64,000 bases of DNA, from the NCBI RefSeq assembly GCF_009914755.1, contig NC_060935.1; one strand, given 5' to 3'. The first letter of the stretch is position 1. Each line of letters begins with the position of its first letter. Source of the DNA: the human T2T-CHM13v2.0 reference genome, Homo sapiens. Under the pieces are notes generated by a model. It saw only the letters and a program-made list of their open reading frames with translations. It was not told the DNA's origin and made no database searches. A program made the position numbers and the translations under genes. This document shows positions 10,893 through 53,000 of this stretch, one piece after another.

Positions 10893-11050
10893 TTGGCCGG
10901 CAGGGCTCTGGGCTGCCTGTGGCTCTCCGGGGGGCTCCTCGTCCTCGGGAATGTGGGGCATGGCAGCCTCCTGCTGGGAGTGGCCACGTGTGCCCGGAAC
11001 CTCCGCTGCGTCAGCCCCAAAGATGCTCCAAGAGGCCTGGGCTCCACAGG
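10893..11050 (-). CDS. IRAG1: IRAG1/MRVI1 coding exon 2 (158 nt; [53 protein letters not shown])
   Basis: Acceptor GTCTCCCCAG|CC at 11051/11050, donor CAA|GTAAGT at 10893/10892; 67+158=225 nt = 75 codons, phase 0. Peptide recognised as IRAG1. Confidence 0.95.
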
Positions 11051-11090
11051 CTGGGGAGACGCCAAAAGGACAAGTCAAATCCATTCCCAT
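10893..11090 (-). CDS. IRAG1: IRAG1 alternative N-terminus [13 protein letters not shown]... from 5'-extended exon 2
   Basis: In-frame ATG at 11090 within ORF 10665..11174(-); [10 protein letters not shown](I/V)SPACGAQ recalled as a human IRAG1 isoform start; upstream acceptor CCCTCTCCTAG|CC at 11181/11180. Confidence 0.8.
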
Positions 11091-13979
11091 CCCTGTCCCA
11101 AGCTGGGTTCCATTTCCCGGAGCCACAAGCCACAGTGAGAGCCGGCTTGAGTTTGCATCAACACCGGAGGTCAAACCAGGCTAGGAGAGGGCATTTGGAA
11201 TTTCATTTCCTCCGGCTCTCTGGCTTTGTTTACAAAGTCAGAGGTGACCTTAGAGATTTTGCATCTAATTTGGTCTTTACAGTAAACACAGCTATCCCAG
11301 AAGGGAGAAATGTGCTTCGAACTCCTCAAAGCTGTAGCTAATGGAAGATACTCCATTGAGATCAGATTGGCAGTTGTTTACCACTTACTGAGCACCTACT
11401 GGGTGCCAGGCCCTGTCCTAGGAGCATCACCATCATCTGATTGAATCCTCAAGATGACCTCTGATGTAGGCATTAATATTCCCATTTTACAGATGAGAGA
11501 ACCGCCCCAGAGAGTGAAAGTCACTTGCCCCAAATCATACAGAGAACCAATAATTTGAACCCAGATCTTCCTGATTTTGAGGCTGGGGCTTTTTCTGCTA
11601 TACTACACAGTGTTCCTCAGCCATGTGGATGGGGAGTAAGAGGTGCTGTTTCCTGACTTCCTCCCTGACACCTCCCCTCATGCTCTTCTGACCCTCAGCA
11701 CAGGCTCTCTCATTTGAGTTCAGCCCTTATGGGGACTACACCAGCCCTACTAAAACCTGGGGGCTCAGGCAGGGTGAATTCCATGTGCCCTGTGCCCACC
11801 CCTGGCAACCTTAGATTGACTCCCAGAAGCCAGGCTATCCCTTCCCCATGGTGCAGCAGCCTGGGGGCACTGGGGTCCCAGTGCTGATTGGGACTGCAAT
11901 CAGCATAATCTCATCCACCTCCCACAGTGACTGGCTCAGGGATAGACAATGGACCCAGCCTACATCGATGAGCTTAAAGTAGTGTTCTAGGTCCAGATGC
12001 TTTCTCCTGCTCTGAGTGGTGGAGTGTGAAGATATGAGACCTGGTGCTACGGACACTATTTTGCTTCCATGAGGAAAGCCAGACAGAATCTAAATGATAC
12101 ACACAGAGGAGGGCAGAGCGAAGGGACCTGCAGAGAAACAGAACTGGAGCCCTGATTAAAGTGTGCCTGAAGCCTGAACACTTTCTGGACTAGCTGGTTA
12201 CATGAACAATTAAGCCTCTTGGTGTTGAAATCACTTTGTGTTGGGTTTTTGTTCCTTGTAACTGAAAACATGCTCCACTACTCTTTCGTGCTTCTTGTCT
12301 GTCAAGATGCCTAGGAGTATGATCCTGCCAACAGACCTGAGCCAATGGGTCTAGCTCCTCTGCTTCCTCTTAGAAGAGGAGACTAGCAATGCCAGGTTTC
12401 CATAGGGAAAGGCAGGATAGCAATGTAGAAAGAACACAGGCTTTGGAACCAGATATCTCGGTGTGAGTCCTCACTTTGCCACTCACTGGCTATGTGGCCT
12501 TGGAAAGTAGGCTTCATCTCTGAGTCCCAGTTTTCTTGTCAAAACAGATAAGAATGCCTCCCAAGCAGGATGCTCCAAGGATGAAACACACTCAGTTCAC
12601 AGTAGTTCCCACAGAGGCCACCTGCACGGGGGTCTGCAGCCCAGGAAGCTTGGCCGAAGCTCCAAGGGCTCTGCCTGGCCTCTCCCCATCCTTAAACTCC
12701 CTCCTTCTTTTATTAGTGGGGTGGGCAATACCTTCAGGAATCTATAGAACTAACAACTGGCCTGGTTCTGCAACTTTTAGAGATTCCCTGAAGGAGCTGC
12801 TCCACTGCACAGTAGATTAAGACCACCATGCAGATAACATAGTGAGGTGACCTTTGGCTGATGGGACATGGTGGGTGGGGGTGGAGATGAAGGACACTGT
12901 CATTTACTGAGCACCAACTGTGTTCCAGGTCCTCTGGAAGGTACTGCTGACTGCTGGAGGCTGTAGGAGGAAGAACCGGAAAGCCCTGCCACCTCCCATA
13001 ATACTTGGTGTTCTTCCTGTCCTTCAGAAAGGGCTCGGAAAGCCCCTAGAGTCAGGGCGCTGGAGAAAAGGCCTGAGCTGCCATCAGCCCAGCTCTGACA
13101 GACCCCCCCAGCCAACACACATACCTCTAGACTCCTGGACTGAGCTCCTTGAGCTAGGCAAGGTGTCAGATTCATCCTAGGTACCCAAAAGATTCAGCAA
13201 AGAATGATTGTTGATTTATGTTTAAAGAACTAGGGACTTTTAGCCCCAGGATTGGTCAAGGTGACCACCATCTTGATTGCTGTCTTTCTCTGCAATGAAC
13301 AAGTTAGCCCACACAGCTCTGGAACAGTTAGGGTGACCCCTACTGGTCACCTCAAGAAATCTCAAGTAGACCATCCATAGAGTCATCCATTCTTTCACTG
13401 CCAAAATTTTACACCTACTCTACCAGGCCTGTGCAAGGGGCTGGTGACATAAAGATAATCTTGGCCTTCAAGGAACATAGAGCCCAGTGGTAGGAGACGC
13501 TGGAGAACAGTATAATGGGGTAAATATTTTGAAAGTGAGAAGTTGCAGGACCCCAGAAAAGGGTTACCTGTGGGAATTGGGATGGTGGGACATGATTTTA
13601 GCAAATATTTCACATTACAAATGTTTGAGCTGAGCCGTGAACACAAATGCTGAGTGGAATTTCTTGGAACAGATTAGCTGGGTGTCTAGTGGGGAAGATA
13701 AGACAGGATGGGGAGAAGCCACATTGGACAGACTTCACCTGGCTCTTGGGAATGAGAACTACGGGGCCAGGGCATGCTGTCTGTGTCTTCCATGCCAAAT
13801 TCTTACTGTATGAATAAACTGAGCATCAGGTTCACCCAAAGGTGAGCTCTGTGATTAATTTCTATCATCTTTACTTGGATTTCAGCAGCAGTGGCATCAG
13901 TGGTGCTGGGTAAAGTATTTGGTAACAGGGGTTGAGGGTAGCAAAAGACTAGCCACAAACCCTGATTCTACTAAAGGAA

Positions 13980-20994: not shown

Positions 20995-21133
20995 GGCTGG
21001 GTGCAGTTGCCCATGCCTGTAATCCCAGGGCTTTGGGAGATCAAGGCGGGTGGATCACTTGAAGTCAGGAGTTCAAGACCAGCCTGGCCAACATGGTGAA
21101 ACCCCATCTCTACTAAAAATACAAAACTTAGCC
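20995..21133 (+). mobile_element. Alu left arm only (3'-truncated AluS-like)
   Basis: Matches Alu through the middle A-rich linker then stops abruptly. Confidence 0.88.
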
Positions 21134-23996
21134 ATCATCTGGGTTGCTATATAAGCAAGTGGGTGGCCTTGCCTGCCCTCATTCTCATTGAGCTTCCCCA
21201 GGTTAATGGCCAAGTTTTTCTCTCTCTCGATGATGTACCTGGGTTTCATGTCTTCTCTGCCACACAGATGTGCAAATTTCTCCCATAGTATTCTACAACT
21301 AAAACCTCACAAAAGGCCAGGGCCTCCTTCTCTGACACCTTCATGCTTCTGTTCTGCCATCCAGGAGTAATTTGCAAAGTGAGTTTTCAGATTAACTTAT
21401 CAATGGCTCTTCTAGCTTTAACCTAAGCCTAACAGAAGACCACAGAGCAGCCCCACCAGCCCCTCTGGCTCCGCTTGGAATGCTGACCAAAGCATTTCCT
21501 CAAACAGTTGGTTATGTGCGTTCAAATGCGGCAGCACCCTCGTGTCTGCTGCTGTGGTACTCTGGAACCACCTCCTTCCTGACAGAGCAGAGCCGGGAGG
21601 CTTTGCAAGGTGATCATTGCCTTTAAACCCAGACCTGGACTCATGGCTTGATTCCTGCTCCAGCAAAGGCACAGACTCTGGTATTAGGGGTCCTGGCAAT
21701 CCAGCACCTGGGATTGCCCATTCCCATGAAGCAGGCCTCTGGGAAATGTACCTTATTTCAGGTAGAAGGCAGGAGGCACTGTACCCACTTGATGGGATCG
21801 CACTAGGCCTTGATGGCCTTGGTTCTTTCAGAAGCCAACATGTGGGCTGAATCTGAGCCAACGGCCTCTTCCTTGGATCTCCCGGCCTCTGAACCTGAAG
21901 ATGCCCTTTTCTTAGGATGGGAGCAAGGATGGATAAAGGCAAGCTGGTGTTTTGTCCAGGCCCAGAGATCTGTCAAGGGCCATCTAGACCACCAGGAACC
22001 AGAAGAGGCACCCTATTGCCTTGGATTCTTTAGAAACTTTGTTCCAAATAAAAATAAAGCTTCCTTGACTTGGCAACACCACAGCCCAATAAATAAATAA
22101 ATAAGCAAAAAAAGAAAAGAAAATTAACACCCAGTTCCCAGTGTGCCTCTCTCATTCAGTTCCTCCTACTTCTCCATCATCTCCCCTTCCCTTCCTAGTT
22201 TTCTTCTAGGAAGAGGTCATCAGGGTCTATTAGGAACCTGTAGGAATACATATAGGAATATAGGAATATATGTAGGAACTGGTTTGGGAAAGTCAGAAGG
22301 AAAAGATGGCCTCCATGGTGCCTGCCTAAATCATTCACCCATTCTAGAAAAGCTTGTTGAGTGCTTCCTATGTGTTAGGTACTGTGCTGGGCACTGGGGC
22401 TCTGGGGTGTGTCCTCCAAGGCCACCTCCTCCAGGAAGGCTTCCCTGACCTCTCCTGGAAGCTATATTCTCCTCTGGTCTATGACAGCACTGTGTGGCTA
22501 TCCCAATCTGCCAAGCAGTGGTTTCTGTTTCTCATTTGCAAAGCCTGAGGGCAGATAGCTTTCTTTTGTAACACAGGTACAGAGAAAGTTCTCAATACCT
22601 GGTGGATCTCTTCTTTTGAAAGCAAGGACTCTAGGAATCAAGCCTCACTTTTCACATGGCCTACTACACACCCAGCACAATGTAGATACGCTAGCTCTTG
22701 AACCATCTCAGGTCTGTGAGAAAGGAATTACTTGTCCATTTTACAGATGAGGAAATGGAGCCTTAGACAAGCAAAGTGACTCGCTCTAGGTCACACAGTC
22801 AGAAGGCAGAGTCAGGATTAAACACTGGGTCTCCTCTGCCCAAAATGGGATGTTTGGCTCTTCCTTAGAGAGAGCTTATTCCTATGCTTCTCTAATCTTA
22901 GCAAAGGCAGAACAAGGGTATTAGGAGATGTTTTTTGATAGGGCAGTGCTCTTGATCATTCTAGATCCCAGCTCTTCCTCAGGGCCAGCACAGCCAACAA
23001 GAACAACAGCAGCCGAGACGCAGCCCCTCTCCGAGGAACTGGAAGTCCTTCTCACGGCATCCCCTGGGGTAGACAGGAAGCAGCTGCGACTGTGATCATC
23101 TAAGACCAGCAGGAGAGAGTGTTCTTCCCTGCTGGGATGGAGCACCCCAGCTCAGGTCCCCGCCTCCTGTTCATCTCCACTCTGGGAATCCCAGTTCTCC
23201 AAAGCCATGGAAATAGGCCCAATAACCTTGGGCTGGGCTGCTGGGCAAAGTCTGGTGTAAAGCATGCTACAGAAAGCTACAGCAGGATTGAGATAGGGGT
23301 TCAGGGACAGGGCCTTGTGGGGAGTGAAGAGCAGACTGCCATGCTAACTGCCTGTGTAGGAATGAGTTCCTTCACCATTCAGGCCTCAGTCTCTCCATCT
23401 CAATAGTAAAGGCTGGGCTAACTTGCCAGCCTGAGCCCTGCTTTCTGCCCCATGAGTTCAAGTTCACGTTGCCTATTGAAAGCAGTCACACAGTAGGAAG
23501 TTAGGGGCCTTCCTGGCATCCCAGGGCTGGAAGCAGCCATCACATCCCCCTGATCACAGTGATTGGCTGGAGGGTGAGCATGTGAGCTGACAAGAACCAA
23601 TGAGATGCAAGAAGACATTACTGGGCATCCTGGGAAAGCCATCCTTAACTGCAGCCTTGAGTTCCAGAGGGTGAAAGCAGAATCCCTCTTAAGATGATGA
23701 AGAAGAACTTGTCTAAGGATGGAATCAATGTGAGACAGAGCACAGCTAAGAGCCAGAAAGAAACTAGGTCCTGAGGCTATCTTCTCAGATCCTGATCAAG
23801 CCATGCCTGATATCCCCAGCCTTTTCTGTTTTGAGAACCAATGAATACCCCTTTTTTCTTAAGCTGGCTTGTACGAGCTTTTTCGGCACTTGCAATAAAG
23901 AGTTCCAACTGGTGCAAACAGCCTATCCTTTATAATGCTGCCTGTGGGGACTTTCTTGGCACCAAGTCTTCTCTCACCTCTCTACTCTGCTGCTTA

Positions 23997-29860: not shown

Positions 29861-30303
29861 AGCTATTGATAGAATCTCTCAGCCATATCAGATTTAAATT
29901 CAAGTCTGTTTCAAACATTTAATCTTTGAAATAGGGATCAATACATTTTGGAGAATAATTGCTTTAGTATTTTTCCAGGCTAACCACAAAACTCCTTTCA
30001 GAACCTTTCTAATGAAATAAAAATTCTCTAGACTAGGTCCCAAGAATTCTACCTTTGAAGAAGTAAAATTATCTCTATTTGCAGGTGATATGATCTTATA
30101 TATGCAAAATCCTGAGGAATCCACTAAAAAACTATTAGGACTAATAAATGAGCTCAGCAAGGCTGCAGGATATATGATTGATATAGTACAATCAATTATA
30201 TTTCTATACATTAGCAATGAACAATCAAAAAATGAAATTAATAAAGCAATTCTATTCACAATAGCATCAAAAGCATAAATACTTAGGAATACACCCAACG
30301 GCT

Positions 30304-30699
<396 letters not shown>

Positions 30700-38861: not shown

Positions 38862-39510
<649 letters not shown>

Positions 39511-47078: not shown

Positions 47079-49024
47079 ATTACAGGAGAAGAAACTGAAG
47101 CGCCAACAGATTAGGTGCAGCTCAAGGGATACAGCTGGTCAGTGGTGGAGCCACACGGTCACTCCAGGGTCCACACTTTCCATAGGGACACTGTGCTGCC
47201 TCCATTACAAGATGTCATCTCCCCACTGTGATAATAAGGGAAGAGCTGGCCAACACTGAGCCCACCTCCTGACTCAGGGCCCGGGGTTATTTTCACCACA
47301 CCTGTATGAGCAAAGTCAAGAATGTCTTCAGGCTTTCTTCTCCTCCTGATGAGCCAGGAAGCTTGGGCTCTCTGGAAACACCCTCTTGATTTGCTTATCA
47401 GCCACAGAACTCTCTGTGGCCTCTCTGTGTCCCTTCCCTGGTGGCCACTCTGGGAACCACATCCCACCCCTAGAGCCAGGCTGTGTGCAGTGTATAGTCT
47501 CATCCCTCTCAGCCTCTCTCATTGAGCCCATTGGTTCCTAAATTCCTGTTGGTTTTGCTGGGATGACTCAACTTCCCCAACACCCTGCACTCACCAATAC
47601 CTGGATTCCACCAAGTTCATACAACCCGATTTCCACCAAGCCGTGGTGGAATGACCTGACTCATTTATACACTATGCTCACAATTTTTCCCATGCCTGTG
47701 TTTTACCTATGCCTTTATTTACTTAATATTCTTTCATTTGAGTAGCAATGGGCCAGAAAATCAAGACTGAAACCCCGGTTGGCCATTTACTAACTTTGTG
47801 TTGTTAGGCAAGTTTCTTGCCCTCTCTGTGCCCCAGTTTCCTGATCTGTATAAGGAGGACAATGACAGTAACTACTTCAGAGGGTTGCTGTGAGGACTGA
47901 ATGAGCGACTGCAGGTAAAGCATTAGGACAGTGCCTAGCACACGGTACACACTCACCAAGTGTTAGCTACCATTGTCATTACTTTTATTTAAAAGGGAAA
48001 CTTTATATTCCTACCTTAAATGGAAAAAGCAATACCACTTACCACAAATAGAGTTATAAAAATAAATAAAATGAAAACGGTTATTAAACCTTAGCTAAGG
48101 CCTGCTCTCATTTTTTTTAAGAAGGGAAACAAACAGAAAGATGGTGAAGGCATATGAGGCTTAAATGAGGGTGACCAACCTTTTGAATTTGTCCAGGACC
48201 TGTCCCAATTTTAGCACTGGAAGTCCTGCAGCAATTCTCATTCCCGGCTGACCCTGGACAGTCGGTCAACCTACCTCAAATAGAGGCTTTCTCTCCTTCA
48301 TTCAAAGGAATAAAAAGAACTTAAGAAGGAATAATGTTCTTACAATGTGATGTTGTGTGTTTAAGGCTGGGTCAGTATCCCACATACGATCATCTTGCAG
48401 AACAAGCTCACACCTTGGGCCACACCACACAAACCCACCTCTGAGAGCTGAGTCTCCAAATGCTATAAACCTATGGAAGAGCCATCATGTCACATGTGCC
48501 ACTGAGAAAGTCCCCAAAGAAAAATCACATTTGTAAATGCCAAGAAGAGGAACAGTGATTAAATTGTTGCACGGCTAAAATGACTCTATGTTATAAAACC
48601 ATTGAAAAATCATGTTTTGGAGAATCTTTAATGATATGGAAAAAGGATTATATTAGAATGCTCAGTTTTAAAAAGCAGACTAAAAAATAACATATACACT
48701 AAGATCCTAGTTTTACAAAATATAGAGAAATGTAAAGGAAGAAACACACCATAATATAAACAATACTTATCACTGAGGAATGGTATTCTAGAGGGTTTTT
48801 TATTTCTTTATATTTATTTCTGAATTTCTTATTTATATCCACTTCTATATTTTCCAAGAAAGTCTAGCAAAGAACATGCATTACTTTTTTTTCTAGAAAA
48901 AACTGAATAGAAATTACAAATTACAAATAAAAAAGTAATAGGAAGAAAGTAACCAGAGCTGATTAAGCCCAGCCTTAGCAGACTTTTTTTACATGTCTTC
49001 TCCGCTAGGAAAAGTTTTCAGTCT

Positions 49025-49301
49025 GGCCGGGTGCGATGGCTCACGCCTATAATCCCAGACTTTGGGAGGCTGAGGTGGGCTGATCACTTGAGGTCAGGAG
49101 TTCGAGACCAGCCTGGGCAACATGACAAAACTCCATCTTTACTAAAAATGTAAAAATTAGCCAGGCATGGTGGTACTCACCTGTAATCCCAGCTACTTGG
49201 GAGGCTGAGGCATGAGAATTGCTTGAACCCGGGAGGTGGGGTTGCACCACTGCACTCCAGCCTGGGTGACAGTGCGAGACCCTGTCTAAAAAAAAAAAAA
49301 A
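49025..49301 (+). mobile_element. Alu (AluS-like), antisense to IRAG1, with ~17 nt deleted in right arm
   Basis: Alu consensus; GTGAGCCGAGATCGCG segment absent at ~49246. Confidence 0.93.
49181..49285 (-). CDS. IRAG1: Candidate Alu-derived in-frame cassette exon of IRAG1 (105 nt; [35 protein letters not shown])
   Basis: T14-AG|ACAG acceptor, CAG|GTGAGT donor, phase 1-1, no stop codon. Confidence 0.6.
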
Positions 49302-52300
49302 TGTTTCCTGTCCGACCAACTGTCCTCTGCTTTCCACCTCCCTTGGAGAAAGCCCTTGCAGAGAAGGCAGGGCTTGTCCAGGGTCATGGGCGTGAGTTAC
49401 CTCTGCTAAGACTCTGAATTTGAAGGCCCATTTGTGAGGCTGCCCTGGACTGTCGCCTGAACTCAGAGTCTAGCCTCCAAGGTCCACAGGACTAACATGA
49501 TATCCCCTTTCCCTCTATTCGTGATTTTCCTGTGATTTGGACTGTGACACTCAGTAACTGCCCCAGGACCTAAGTTACTAACTAGCGGCAGGGTGACATC
49601 TAATGCAGGAAGCGCCCGCTTTGGACCAAGGTGGCTTGAGCTGGAGTCCACCACCTACCAGCTGTATGCCTCTCTCCTCATCTCTAACATGAGGCTTAAA
49701 TTAAATAACAGATCTAGCACAGATCCTGGCACAAAGTAGAAGCTCAATTAATACCAATTTTCTCCCGTTTCCTTTTACATTCACTACCTGAGAACTCAGC
49801 TCTCCATCTCCCTCCTCTGACTCAGCTCCCCAAGGGGCAGGGGCAGGGCCAGAGTCTGGGGGCCCCAAGCTCTCTTCTCCCTATCTACCCAGGCCTCTGC
49901 TTCTATTCAGTCAGCAAACAATCCCTCTGCTGACCAATAAGCCCCAGAGAGAGCGGCTGAGGGGCAGTCCAGGCTCTGTGAGGTGACCCAGGAGAGGAGG
50001 CAGGGTGAGAGAGGTGGGTAACTTCAGGCCCCCACCTTGTGTTCTTTAGGGTCAAACTAGATGAATCTGATCATCAGGCACATGTACAAAATCAACCCAG
50101 GGCCCTGTGTAACCAGAACCCACTTTATAAGCATTGTGTCCATTTATTCACAGAAACATGATTGAACCTGAGCACTTCGTGTGCTCCCGGCATTCTGGGT
50201 GCTAGACACACAACGGGTGAGGAACGGGATAAGGTCTCCGCCCTTGCAGGGCTCAGTCTGCTCCTCCAGGAGGTGTGGGGTGCTTCTGTCCACCTCTGTT
50301 ACAAAGACTTAGAGGAGAAAGGCAGGGCTTTTTAGAAAGCTGAGGACCCATCACGTATAGTTCAGCCCATCAGTCAAGGAACCTAGCTTCCTCACACAGA
50401 CCCACAGAACTCCTCATCCCCAAACCATGAGCCTCCTCAGCCTCCCAGGGATTCAGTTTCAAGTAGGTTTCACATGGCCCTAACTTCCTCACCCAAGATA
50501 CTATTTAAATTCCCTGCTTTGTCACTTGGTGGCTGGGTGAGCTTGGACGAGTCATTTAACATCCCCTAGCCCCACTGTCCTCACCTGGAGCAGTAAGGTA
50601 AAGATACATCCCCCATGGCATTCTGTGAGGGGCATGTGAAATCCCTCGTGGAAAGCCTCAGATGCACCATGTTGCAAGGGGGCCGGTGATTCCCCCGCTG
50701 CACTCTGACATGGGGTCCCAAGCAGACGGGAGCTGACCATGGAGGTCAAGAGCAGAGCCTCCAGAGACCATGGCCTGGGGCTGAGCATCAGCTGTGCAGC
50801 CTCTCTGTGCTAAAGTGTCCTCCTCTACAAGACCAGGGTGGAAAGAATGACCCCTGCTTTGTAGAGCTGTGGGAGTCATGAGTTACTGTATGGGAAGGGG
50901 AACAGTGTTCAATACATAGTAAGAACCATGTGTTTGCTGTTTATTTTCTTTCAGAAATATATTTATGGGGATAACCAATCATGTAGTAGCAGCTAGCACA
51001 TGGTTATCCCTCCAAGATGATAAAGGATACAGGAATGCCTCCCTTACCTCCAAGCATAAAGATAGGTGCATCCGCTGTGAATATAAACAGCCACCCACCA
51101 AATATGCACGCACACACACACACACACACGCACTATGGAATCATGGACAGTACAAACATGATAATGACAACTGTTTTGTCCATTAGGTCAAAAATCGCAA
51201 GACACAATTGGAGGCAGCATCATACCCTGGCATTCACGTCTGTGTTGAGAGGCATGGGCACTGGAGTTAGAGTCATACAAACTCATACAGGGTTTGAGTC
51301 CTAGCTCCGCTCCATCTTGGTGGAACGACCTTAGGCAAGTCACTTAACCTGAGTTCCCTCCCCCATAGAACTGTTGGGGTAGGGGAGTGCAGGGGGATGG
51401 GCAACTCCACCTGCCTCACTAGCATGTCATCGTCCCTCGGTGGGGGCAATACAATCCTTGGCAGGTCCTGACTCCTTTGGACCCCCAGCCTCACAGTCCC
51501 AGGAAGCTTCCTCCTTTTCCCTGCAAAAGACTCTGCTCAGACCAGATTTACTTCCCTGTGCCACCCCAGTGAGCAGCCTGAAGAGTGTTCAGCAGCTGCC
51601 GAGCTCTGGGAGGCTGGAGTGCTGGCCAGGGGTCCCAGACCCCGGGCTGCTGTTTACTCAAACTGCAGAGCCTCTATAGCCTTTACAACTGTTTCCTGGG
51701 CAGGAGGGAGCAAGACAGCTGGGCCTCTCTCTGGCCTCTGGCTTCCACTGGCTTTTCCTTTGGAAAAAGCCAGTTCAAATGGTGCTCACTCTAGGAATCG
51801 CTTCAACTCGGAGCCCTGGAGGTGAGCAGGGCCGGGCACGGGCCGGGCACATACACCCCCTCTAGGGAGCAGGGAAGGGCACAGGCCAGGGGAAGCTGGA
51901 GACAAAAGAGGAGACAGGGACAGAGATAAAAACAGGGACTGTGACAAGAACACAGGATGGGAAGGGCAGAGACAGAAATAGAGGCAGGCTTAAGGATCTA
52001 GACAGGTCATGCCAGCCCAGGTTCAAGGCAGAGGGGCGTAGGGGGACAGAGAGAGAGACACAGGAAGCACAGAGGGGAGAAAGCTCTGCTTAGCAGACTT
52101 GCCAAAGCTGAAGACCCCACTGTTGCCACAAAGGGGCCCACAGGAAAGCTAGGGGTTGCAATCGCCTGTCAGGACCCACATTTTCACCCTGAGCTGTGCA
52201 CACTTTCCAACGGCAAGCAAAAGGAGCACAATCTAGTTAAGTTAGGACTGGCAAGATTCACTTCTGATTTAAAACTTAAGACAGCAACAATAAAGATACT

Positions 52301-52450
52301 CAGCTGAAATGCCACCCAACAAAGCCAGCTCCCCTGGAAAGTTAAAGTTTAGCACCCCCATCCCAGCACCCTGTACCTTTAAGGAAGAGAAGGTTCCCTC
52401 CGCTTCCCAGCCGAAGAGGCAGGTTATTCTAGGATATAGGGGAGGCTTAC

Positions 52451-52517
52451 CTAAAACTGAGTTATTCTCCTTTCCTCCTCTGGCCAGCCTCCCTTCACTC
52501 TGGGGAGCTTTTACCAT
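52451..52517 (-). CDS. IRAG1: IRAG1/MRVI1 first coding exon (coding part, 67 nt; MVKAPQSEGRLARGGKENNSVL + 1 nt)
   Basis: ATG at 52517 preceded by an in-frame TAA; consensus donor TTAG|GTAAGC at 52451/52450; phase 1 joins exon 2 in frame (G+CC=Ala). Peptide recognised as the IRAG1 long-isoform N-terminus. Confidence 0.92.
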
Positions 52518-52523
52518 TTAAGG
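52514..52523. promoter_or_regulatory. CArG box (SRF consensus) overlapping the IRAG1 start codon
   Basis: CCATTTAAGG = CC(A/T)6GG; function inferred only. Confidence 0.5.
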
Positions 52524-53000
52524 TCAATGTTACATCTGGCTCCGGAGCTCAGAGCCGAGAAGCCTCTGGCTGCAGAACCTCGGCCGCACGCCTCCTCTGA
52601 GAGGGGCTGGGACTTAGAGCCGAGAGCTCCTCTGGGAGCCCCACTCCGGCCTGGCTCGGGGGATAATGGCAGGGAAAGCCGACCAGCTGGCCTCAGGGCT
52701 CAGGGCAGGCTGGGCCTTTGGGGCAGTCGCTCACCCTGGGCCCCTCCGATGGGTATCCACACAGCAGATGGCAGTCCCCATGGCAACTCGTGCCACTGGA
52801 CACTGTCCTGGCCGGACGGGAACAAAGGGACCCTGCAGATCTCCCCACCCGCCTGGAGCCTCCAGCAAGCATGTGAGCCTGGAGAAGACCCTGGGCCAGC
52901 GCCAAGAGAAACTGGGAATGGTTCCTGTCCTGGGGATTCGGGGGCAGGGGCTGCTCCCACTGCGTTAAACTCTTGGGATTGCCAGAGAGAATGGCCTGGG
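52518..53000 (-). promoter_or_regulatory. IRAG1: IRAG1 5' UTR / proximal promoter region (TSS not resolvable from sequence)
   Basis: GC-rich, repeat-free stretch with some retained CpGs directly upstream of the first ATG; no strong CpG island. Confidence 0.55.

What the first reader, a model, noticed from the sequence alone, without database searches (positions are those of the whole stretch)
49181..49285. Antisense Alu remodelled into a stop-free, frame-preserving 105-nt IRAG1 cassette exon
Seen: on the minus strand the Alu right arm reads T14-AG|ACAGGGTCTCG...GGGATTACAG|GTGAGT. Three departures from Alu consensus all favour exonisation: TTTGAG became TTTAG (stronger acceptor); the usual GC-type site after ACAG became a perfect GTGAGT donor; and ~17 nt were lost, shortening the usual ~122-nt frameshifting right-arm exon to exactly 105 nt. 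It is phase 1-1 like intron 1, so exon1(G)+AC=Asp ... Thr+G|CC=Ala inserts 35 aa ([35 protein letters not shown]) without a stop. Established: antisense Alu right arms are the main source of primate exonisation. Inference: a primate-specific IRAG1 N-terminal variant. It may already be annotated as a minor transcript.
Basis: partly seen in the sequence, partly recalled or inferred. Interest (0 to 1): 0.8.

Follow-up and report, generated by a model that had tools for sequence, protein, structure and literature searches.

The report
Known Alu-derived alternative exon in IRAG1
A 105-base piece of an old Alu repeat lying backwards in the first intron of human IRAG1 has very good splice signals and an open reading frame, but it is an ordinary case of Alu exonisation and is already listed as an alternative exon in RefSeq.

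Summary
On the minus strand, 49285-49181 is a 105-nt stretch of an antisense Alu right arm. It is preceded by T14-AG and followed by GTGAGT. After the exon-1 ATG (phase 1) it is in frame and stop-free.

Ten other Alu copies in the window serve as controls. None has the TAG acceptor, the GTGAGT donor or the net 17-nt loss. In the whole T2T genome the strict acceptor-plus-donor pattern matches only this locus; a relaxed pattern matches 14 loci, and this one is the only 105-nt case.

The hub's RefSeq table already lists exon 49181-49285 among the "exons of other transcripts", and the selected transcript skips it. So this is an already annotated alternative Alu exon of the textbook kind.

One question stays open. 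The carrying transcript may start at the exon with the ATG, which gives a 35-aa insert in the long IRAG1 form. Or it may start at the ATG-less alternative first exon 52458-52377, which makes the Alu exon 5'UTR with a 6-codon upstream ORF.

A marmoset IRAG1 model carries a 16-aa Alu-derived insert at the same junction, but its orthology is ambiguous. No paper in the searched library mentions this exon. Interest is low.

The parts
49181..49285 (-). 105-nt Alu-derived alternative exon of IRAG1 (antisense Alu right arm)
   Evidence: Sequence read. The same coordinates are listed in the hub's RefSeq table as an exon of a non-selected transcript. It is open in frame offset 2, the frame set by a phase-1 upstream exon.
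49286..49301 (-). Acceptor: uninterrupted T14 (49301-49288), which is the antisense Alu poly(A) tail, followed directly by AG (49287-49286)
   Evidence: TAG at this place is found in 0 of 10 other in-window Alus. A second AG 4 nt further in (exon start 49281) would give a 101-nt exon, a frameshift and a stop inside the Alu.
49175..49180 (-). Donor GTGAGT; with the last three exon bases it matches CAG|GTRAGT at 9 of 9 positions
   Evidence: It is the only GT in the Alu with at least 7 of 9 matches. It is better than IRAG1 exon 1's own donor (7 of 9) and exon 2's donor (8 of 9). GTGAGT is found in 0 of 10 other in-window Alus.
49022..49312 (+). Whole Alu element: left arm, A-rich linker, right arm and A14 tail, with a decayed target-site duplication
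   Evidence: Two Rfam Metazoa_SRP matches. blastn finds other copies in the window at 70-82% identity. Alignment. It differs from the in-window majority at 17.9% of positions and keeps 7 CpG, so it is an old copy. Flanks read.
49241..49242 (.). Site of the net 17-nt loss relative to other Alus
   Evidence: MAFFT alignment: 0 of 10 other copies share the gap. The junction 31-mer is exact only here in the whole genome, with 2 further places at 2 mismatches. GCAA repeats 16 nt apart flank the site in 2 undeleted copies.
49193..49213 (-). ATG plus 5 codons plus TAG inside the Alu exon (frame offset 0); an upstream ORF if the exon is 5'UTR
   Evidence: ATG at 49213 in the join of the alternative first exon, the Alu exon and exon 2. 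Weak start context.
52451..52670 (-). IRAG1 exon 1 of the selected transcript; ATG at 52517-52515 and a 67-nt coding part ending in phase 1
   Evidence: Hub table. The same N-terminus is seen in IRAG1 proteins of many mammals.
52377..52458 (-). Alternative first exon of another RefSeq transcript; it reads through the exon-1 donor to a weaker donor and holds no ATG
   Evidence: Hub table; no ATG; donor matches 5 of 9. If transcription began further upstream, the distance from the ATG to this donor is 141 nt (phase 0). The Alu exon is then read in the frame with the stop.
10893..11050 (-). IRAG1 exon 2, the downstream splice partner; its internal Met codon at 10961-10959 is the likely start of the shorter IRAG1b form
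   Evidence: That Met lies 52 residues after the exon-1 Met. This equals the 911-859 length difference between IRAG1a and IRAG1b given in PMC10298018 (passages).

Best explanation
An old Alu (S/J-like by recalled diagnostic bases) was inserted antisense into IRAG1 intron 1. It has decayed into a cryptic exon that the spliceosome sometimes uses.

Mechanism. In the pre-mRNA, the antisense poly(A) tail is a 14-U polypyrimidine tract that ends directly in UAG. The junction between the right arm and the linker has become CAG|GUGAGU, which fits U1 fully. A net 17-nt loss makes the exon 105 nt.

Consequence. The exon is included as a minor alternative exon between exon 1 and exon 2; the selected transcript skips it. 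After the ATG-bearing exon 1 it adds 35 Alu-encoded residues at residue 22/23. That lies in the part of the protein unique to the long (IRAG1a-type) form and ahead of the mapped PKGI-beta and IP3R contact regions. After the ATG-less alternative first exon it is 5'UTR and adds a 6-codon upstream ORF ahead of the IRAG1b-type start.

Shown here: the anatomy, the frame, the Alu origin, and the rarity of the combination. Taken from the hub table: that it is an annotated exon and that the main transcript skips it. Inferred: low inclusion, probably held down by hnRNP C on the long U tract (recalled from Zarnack 2013; I saw only the start of its abstract), and little or no functional effect.
For: Anatomy and frame.
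Alu identity and orientation.
In-window controls: 0 of 10 other Alus have the TAG acceptor, 0 of 10 have GTGAGT, 0 of 10 have the 17-nt gap. Only 1 of 10 is stop-free in the phase-1 frame, and that copy lies upstream of the gene with a GC donor.
Genome-wide: the donor 20-mer occurs at 131 places. Strict acceptor plus donor occurs at 1 place, this one. The relaxed pattern occurs at 14 places, with a 119-nt span here against 128-138 nt in the other 13.
Annotation: the hub's RefSeq table lists 49181-49285 as an exon of a non-selected transcript.
Literature context (abstract starts in the listing): 'an estimated 2000 human exons' come from Alu (PMC4736476), and more than a thousand Alus overlap annotated coding exons, almost all in alternative transcripts (PMC6924539).
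The encoded peptide is the generic antisense-Alu reading: 767 proteins with E<=0.001 among 5447 candidates. The 120 best listed are mostly unnamed or low-quality primate models, and none is IRAG1.
Against: I saw no transcript, junction-read or peptide data, so use of the exon rests on the hub's annotation line alone.
No human, ape or Old World monkey IRAG1 protein among the cluster representatives carries the insert: 119 of 120 listed have none, and 114 of 115 have none. Isoforms may be hidden inside the 292-member primate cluster P0140, which I could not list.
MRVI1/IRAG1 is absent from the held supplementary text of four Alu-exon papers. Those files are small or may use other identifiers.
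The 14-U tract could equally mean near-complete repression.
Confidence: 0.85

Rival explanations
1. The exon is non-coding in the transcript that carries it. It follows the ATG-less alternative first exon 52458-52377 and lies in the 5'UTR of an mRNA translated from the exon-2 Met (IRAG1b-type). Its only effect is a longer leader with a 6-codon upstream ORF.
For: The hub table lists both odd exons among 'other transcripts'. The alternative first exon has no ATG, and the first ATG in the join lies inside the Alu and stops after 6 codons. The next ATG is the exon-2 Met in the IRAG1 frame, with a better context (G at -3).
The 52-residue offset of that Met equals the published a/b length difference.
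Two of the five other transcripts are excluded as carriers. NM_001098579 uses the numbering of the form that starts in the extended exon 2 (passages). NM_001206880 has the site 5.7 kb upstream of that start in its intron 1 (table row). This exclusion favours neither reading.
Against: Nothing ties the Alu exon to that first exon rather than to exon 1.
The exact phase-1 compatibility and stop-free frame are what a curated coding variant would look like.
A marmoset model places an Alu-derived insert in frame after the exon-1 ATG.
Confidence: 0.45
2. The exon encodes a selected, functional primate-specific 35-aa insert in the IRAG1a N-terminus that changes IRAG1 behaviour in smooth muscle or platelets.
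For: Frame-preserving and stop-free.
Three changes in one copy all favour inclusion, and the combination is unique in the genome under the strict pattern.
A New World monkey model also has an in-frame Alu insert at this junction.
Against: The selected transcript skips it (hub table).
The peptide is the generic Alu reading without any domain.
Chance alone gives roughly one chance in three for the length and two open frames of three.
With more than a million Alus, one such copy is expected, and it was noticed because it is spliced.
There are no proteomic hits in the held supplements, which is weak evidence.
The insert lies outside the mapped PKGI-beta (bovine residues 152-184) and coiled-coil/IP3R regions (passages of PMC10298018).
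Confidence: 0.07
3. Not a real exon: a good-looking cryptic site kept silent in vivo, annotated from a single aberrant cDNA.
For: A 14-U tract is the kind of site reported to be blocked by hnRNP C (recalled).
No paper in the searched library mentions it.
No protein representative carries it.
Against: RefSeq lists it with exact splice-site boundaries.
The donor matches 9 of 9 and the acceptor is the best in the element.
A related exon is modelled in marmoset.
Confidence: 0.06

Closest known systems
Exonised antisense Alu right arms (Lev-Maor et al. 2003 on 3' site choice; Sorek et al. 2004 on 5' site formation; both recalled, not read here)
   Same: Antisense orientation. The poly(A)-tail-derived U tract serves as the polypyrimidine tract. 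The acceptor lies at the first AG after it. The donor lies at the ...ACAG|GC site and is activated by a C-to-T change. The exon is alternative, not constitutive.
   Different: The acceptor here is TAG rather than the usual GAG/CAG pair. The donor carries further changes that make it a full consensus match. A net 17-nt loss turns the usual 122-nt frameshifting segment into 105 nt. These are differences of degree, not of kind.
hnRNP C-repressed Alu exons (Zarnack et al. 2013, PMC3629564; only the abstract start seen, and its held supplement text has no MRVI1)
   Same: A long uninterrupted U tract directly upstream of the Alu acceptor, and a second U-rich stretch in the linker just after the donor.
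   Different: Repression at this locus is untested. This exon is annotated as used in unperturbed cells.
Callithrix jacchus IRAG1 isoform X6 (P0157, 889 aa; a predicted model)
   Same: It starts with the same exon-1 peptide and has an in-frame Alu-derived insert exactly between the exon-1 and exon-2 parts. The insert ends at the same ...ACAG donor position of an antisense right arm.
   Different: The insert is only 16 aa (a 48-nt exon), so the acceptor is internal. Its 15 wholly internal residues match the human Alu at 30462-30506 at 13 of 15 (that copy has a stop in human) and the exon Alu at 49182-49226 at 12 of 15. Orthology with the exon studied here is therefore undecided.
IRAG1a / IRAG1b N-terminal forms (review PMC10298018, passages)
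   Same: Variation confined to the extreme N-terminus and produced at the 5' end of the gene. The downstream Met of exon 2 fits the b form.
   Different: The described forms do not involve an Alu exon. The review passages I saw do not mention one.

Membership tests
Alu exon (exonised antisense Alu right arm) | The sequence is an Alu element | tested here: met
   Two Rfam SRP/Alu-domain matches, E about 1e-11. It aligns over its full length with 10 other Alu copies in the window.
Alu exon (exonised antisense Alu right arm) | Antisense to the host gene | tested here: met
   The Alu is on the + strand. IRAG1 is on the - strand (hub table; exon reading frames).
Alu exon (exonised antisense Alu right arm) | Acceptor made of the tail-derived U tract plus the first AG of the right arm | tested here: met
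   T14-AG at 49301-49286. The aligned position is GAG in 8 of 10 other copies.
Alu exon (exonised antisense Alu right arm) | Donor at the ...ACAG|G(C>T) site at the inner end of the right arm | tested here: met
   CAG|GTGAGT at 49183-49175. The aligned position is GC in 7 of 10 and GT in 3 of 10 other copies.
Alu exon (exonised antisense Alu right arm) | Found in mature transcripts, and alternatively rather than constitutively | not testable with these tools
   Only the hub's RefSeq table speaks to this: the exon is listed for a non-selected transcript and is absent from the selected one. No expression data are on hand.
Frame-preserving coding cassette exon | Length is a multiple of three, with no stop in the frame set by the upstream exon | tested here: met
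   105 nt, open in the phase-1 frame. Use of the second AG would break this.
Frame-preserving coding cassette exon | The same transcript carries the upstream start codon | tested here: inconclusive
   Two possible upstream exons exist, one with and one without the ATG (hub table). No human protein representative with the insert was found, but cluster members could not be listed.
Frame-preserving coding cassette exon | Evidence of translation or of selection on the codons | not testable with these tools
   No Ribo-seq, proteome or primate genome alignment is available. The held supplement texts of PMC4731929 and PMC6924539 do not name the gene.

The most novel reading that the evidence does not exclude
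The 105-nt Alu exon is translated after the exon-1 ATG in some IRAG1-expressing cells. It gives anthropoid primates a long-form IRAG1 with an extra 35-residue (16 in marmoset) N-terminal segment that alters the IRAG1/PKGI-beta/IP3R complex, with the exon's three enabling changes fixed by selection.
Probability: 0.06. Interest if true: 0.35.

Novelty: already known. Interest (0 to 1): 0.1.

Why it matters
It matters little beyond being a tidy worked example. It shows, with internal controls, how few changes turn a silent antisense Alu into a clean, frame-preserving exon: one base at the acceptor, three or four at the donor, and a 17-nt loss. If the exon were translated at useful levels it would be a primate-only change to a protein of the NO/cGMP relaxation pathway. 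Nothing seen here suggests that it is more than a minor isoform.

Tried and rejected
1. Literature. MRVI1 or IRAG1 combined with 'Alu exon', 'exonization' or 'Alu' gave 0, 0, 1, 9 and 0 papers. From their listed titles and abstract openings alone (none was opened), none appears to concern this exon.
2. Supplements. MRVI1 was sought in all four papers and IRAG1 also in the first two. None occurs in the held text of PMC4731929 (5 files), PMC6924539 (1 file), PMC3629564 (2 files) or PMC5115870 (3 files). The files are partial or may use other identifiers, so this is weak evidence.
Supplements that I could not see may list this exon.
4. von Werder 2011, on human IRAG splice variants, is not held. 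It may describe this exon.
5. RefSeq accession search and passages. These only excluded NM_001098579 and NM_001206880 as carriers. The carrier among NM_001100163, NM_001100167 and NM_001206881 stays unknown.
6. Protein search with the exon's own translation. The first try was too short (34 aa). I resent it as the 40-aa in-frame genomic reading. It returned only generic Alu peptides.
7. Protein searches from exon 2 and from the marmoset N-terminus. No human or ape isoform with the insert appears among the representatives.
8. Orthology of the marmoset insert. It stays ambiguous: 13 of 15 against 12 of 15, and no marmoset DNA is on hand.
10. I considered folding the pre-mRNA and modelling the protein. 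I left both out because neither would change the verdict.

Full report
**The sequence.** On the minus strand the window reads an uninterrupted T14 (49301-49288), AG (49287-49286), then 105 nt (49285-49181), then GTGAGT (49180-49175). The coding part of IRAG1 exon 1 runs from the ATG at 52517 to 52451. It is 67 nt long and ends in phase 1. Joined in a script to the 105 nt and to exon 2 (11050 downward), the frame stays open and re-enters exon 2 correctly. Of the exon's own three frames, offset 0 has one stop and offsets 1 and 2 are open.

**What the sequence is.** Rfam's signal-recognition-particle RNA model matches twice on the + strand, at 49026-49141 (E 1.8e-11) and 49160-49290 (E 4.6e-11). 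Both are below its gathering score, which is the usual signature of the two arms of an Alu. The element is therefore antisense to IRAG1. blastn with this copy gave 22 matches in the window. I took the 11 full-length copies, this one included, and aligned them in the IRAG1 sense. I left out two partial copies (20995-21134 and 38874-39084) and the secondary matches.
- This copy differs from the in-window majority at 17.9% of aligned positions and keeps 7 CpG. The two youngest-looking copies differ at 10-12% and keep 16-24 CpG. So this is an old copy.
- Assignment to an S or J subfamily rests on recalled diagnostic bases only.
- A decayed target-site duplication flanks it.

**The three departures** (controls are the 10 other copies).
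- Acceptor. The aligned position reads GAG in 8 of 10, AAG in 1 and no AG in 1. TAG occurs in 0 of 10. The change may be a G-to-T substitution as well as a lost G, because the T run varies in length.
- Donor. GC in 7 of 10 and GT in 3 of 10 (GTGCCC, GTGCGC, GTGCTC). GTGAGT occurs in 0 of 10. With the last three exon bases the site matches CAG|GTRAGT at 9 of 9. It is the only GT in the element with 7 or more matches, and it beats IRAG1's own exon-1 donor (7 of 9) and exon-2 donor (8 of 9).
- Length. The equivalent segment is 122 nt in 4 of 10 and 121-124 nt in 8 of 10. The net 17-nt gap is shared by 0 of 10.
- The gap matters for the frame. Only 1 of 10 other copies is stop-free in the phase-1 frame. 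That copy lies upstream of the gene and has a GAG acceptor and a GC donor.
- In two undeleted copies GCAA occurs twice, 16 nt apart, at the gap. The loss may therefore be one 17-nt event, or a 16-nt slippage plus a 1-nt loss.

**Rarity in the genome.** The window's own genome (T2T-CHM13) could be searched.
- The 31-mer across the gap is exact only here, with two further places at 2 mismatches.
- The donor 20-mer occurs at 131 places.
- The strict pattern (T6-AG-ACAG, 85-115 nt, TTACAG-GTGAGT) occurs at 1 place, this one.
- A relaxed pattern occurs at 14 places. The span is 119 nt here against 128-138 nt in the other 13.
- The tool warns that counts for repeats are lower bounds.
- The combination is truly uncommon. 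But with more than a million Alu copies (recalled figure), one such copy is no surprise, and this one drew attention because it looks like an exon.

**Transcript context.** The hub's RefSeq table lists 49181-49285 exactly, among the exons of non-selected transcripts. The selected transcript splices 52451 directly to 11050. So the exon is annotated and alternative. The table also lists an alternative first exon, 52458-52377, and an extended exon 2 (to 11146).
- The alternative first exon has no ATG. After it, the first ATG lies inside the Alu exon (49213) and stops after 6 codons. The next ATG is the Met in exon 2 (10961), in the IRAG1 frame and in a better context.
- That Met lies 52 residues after the exon-1 Met. 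This equals the 911-859 difference between IRAG1a and IRAG1b in the review PMC10298018 (passages).
- If a transcript began upstream and used the donor at 52377, the Alu exon would be read in the frame with the stop.
- Use of the second AG, 4 nt inside the exon, gives 101 nt and a stop.
- The exon is therefore coding only in the combination of exon 1 (52670-52451), acceptor 49285, and exon 2.
- I could not see which first exon the annotated carrier has. NM_001098579 is excluded: its numbering fits the form that starts in the extended exon 2 (passages of PMC6042724). NM_001206880 is excluded: a table row in PMC9118695 puts a site about 5.7 kb upstream of that start in its intron 1 of 19. Three accessions remain.

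**Protein databases.**
The 120 listed are generic Alu-derived stretches, mostly in unnamed or low-quality primate models. None is IRAG1.
- The exon-2 peptide found 168 proteins among 231 candidates. Of the 120 listed, 119 have no insert between the exon-1 and exon-2 parts.
- The exception is marmoset IRAG1 isoform X6 (P0157). It has a 16-aa Alu-derived insert at exactly this junction, after the exon-1 start.
- Searching with its first 68 residues found 115 proteins among 168 candidates. Only P0157 itself carries the insert.
- The insert's 15 internal residues match the window best at another antisense Alu of the same intron (30462-30506, 13 of 15, with a stop in human), and next at the exon studied here (49182-49226, 12 of 15). 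Orthology is undecided.
- Human isoforms may be hidden in the 292-member primate cluster P0140, which I could not list.

**Literature.** Five searches joining MRVI1 or IRAG1 with Alu terms listed 0, 0, 1, 9 and 0 papers; I judged the ten listed papers from titles and abstract openings only, and none appears to concern this exon. The gene name is absent from the held supplement text of four Alu-exon papers. Abstract starts in the listing give the scale. PMC4736476 estimates that 2000 human exons come from Alu. PMC6924539 says more than a thousand Alus overlap annotated coding exons, almost all in alternative transcripts.

**Verdict.** This is a real-looking, already annotated alternative exon of the best-known kind of primate exon birth. 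The mechanism I commit to (0.85) is as follows. The tail-derived U tract and UAG recruit U2AF. The consensus donor pairs with U1. The exon is included in a minority of transcripts, probably held down by hnRNP C on the 14-U tract (recalled, untested). Its effect is either a 35-residue insert in the dispensable extreme N-terminus of the long form, or a longer leader with a small upstream ORF for the short form. I put the two contexts at about even odds, and a selected function at about 0.06.

**Novelty and interest.** Already known; interest is low.

Noticed in passing
P0157 (Callithrix jacchus IRAG1 isoform X6), residues 23-38; window 30462-30506 and 49182-49226 (-): A marmoset IRAG1 model has a 16-aa Alu-derived in-frame insert at the exon 1/exon 2 junction. 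It matches two different antisense Alus of human intron 1 almost equally well (13 and 12 of 15).
   Followed up: partly
window 30302-30596 (+ strand Alu, read on -): A second antisense Alu in intron 1 has an AAG acceptor after a T-rich run and a CAG|GTGCGC donor, with a 122-nt segment. In human it has stops in the phase-1 frame and is not annotated as an exon.
   Followed up: partly
window 52377-52458 (-): The annotated alternative first exon begins 8 nt before the exon-1 donor and reads through it to a weak donor (AAG|GTACAG, 5 of 9). A start that close to the donor may be why the canonical donor is not used (inference).
   Followed up: partly
window 52530-52535 (-): Exon 1 holds an ATG followed at once by TAA, 18 nt upstream of the main ATG. 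It is a minimal upstream ORF in a weak context. The main ATG itself has T at -3.
   Followed up: no
window 1751-63149: 10 of the 11 full-length Alu copies found in the window lie on the + strand, antisense to IRAG1. Four of the eleven lie upstream of the gene.
   Followed up: no
window 49073-49268: Sub-threshold Rfam matches to the Alu-derived microRNA families mir-1268, mir-1285 and mir-3135 lie inside the same Alu. All are far below their gathering scores and are most likely just Alu similarity.
   Followed up: no
window 11051-11146 (-): The extended form of exon 2 (an alternative first exon) carries its own ATG. This gives the N-terminus seen in many mammalian IRAG1 proteins (43 residues before the exon-2 Met). 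An earlier out-of-frame ATG stops after 12 codons.
   Followed up: no
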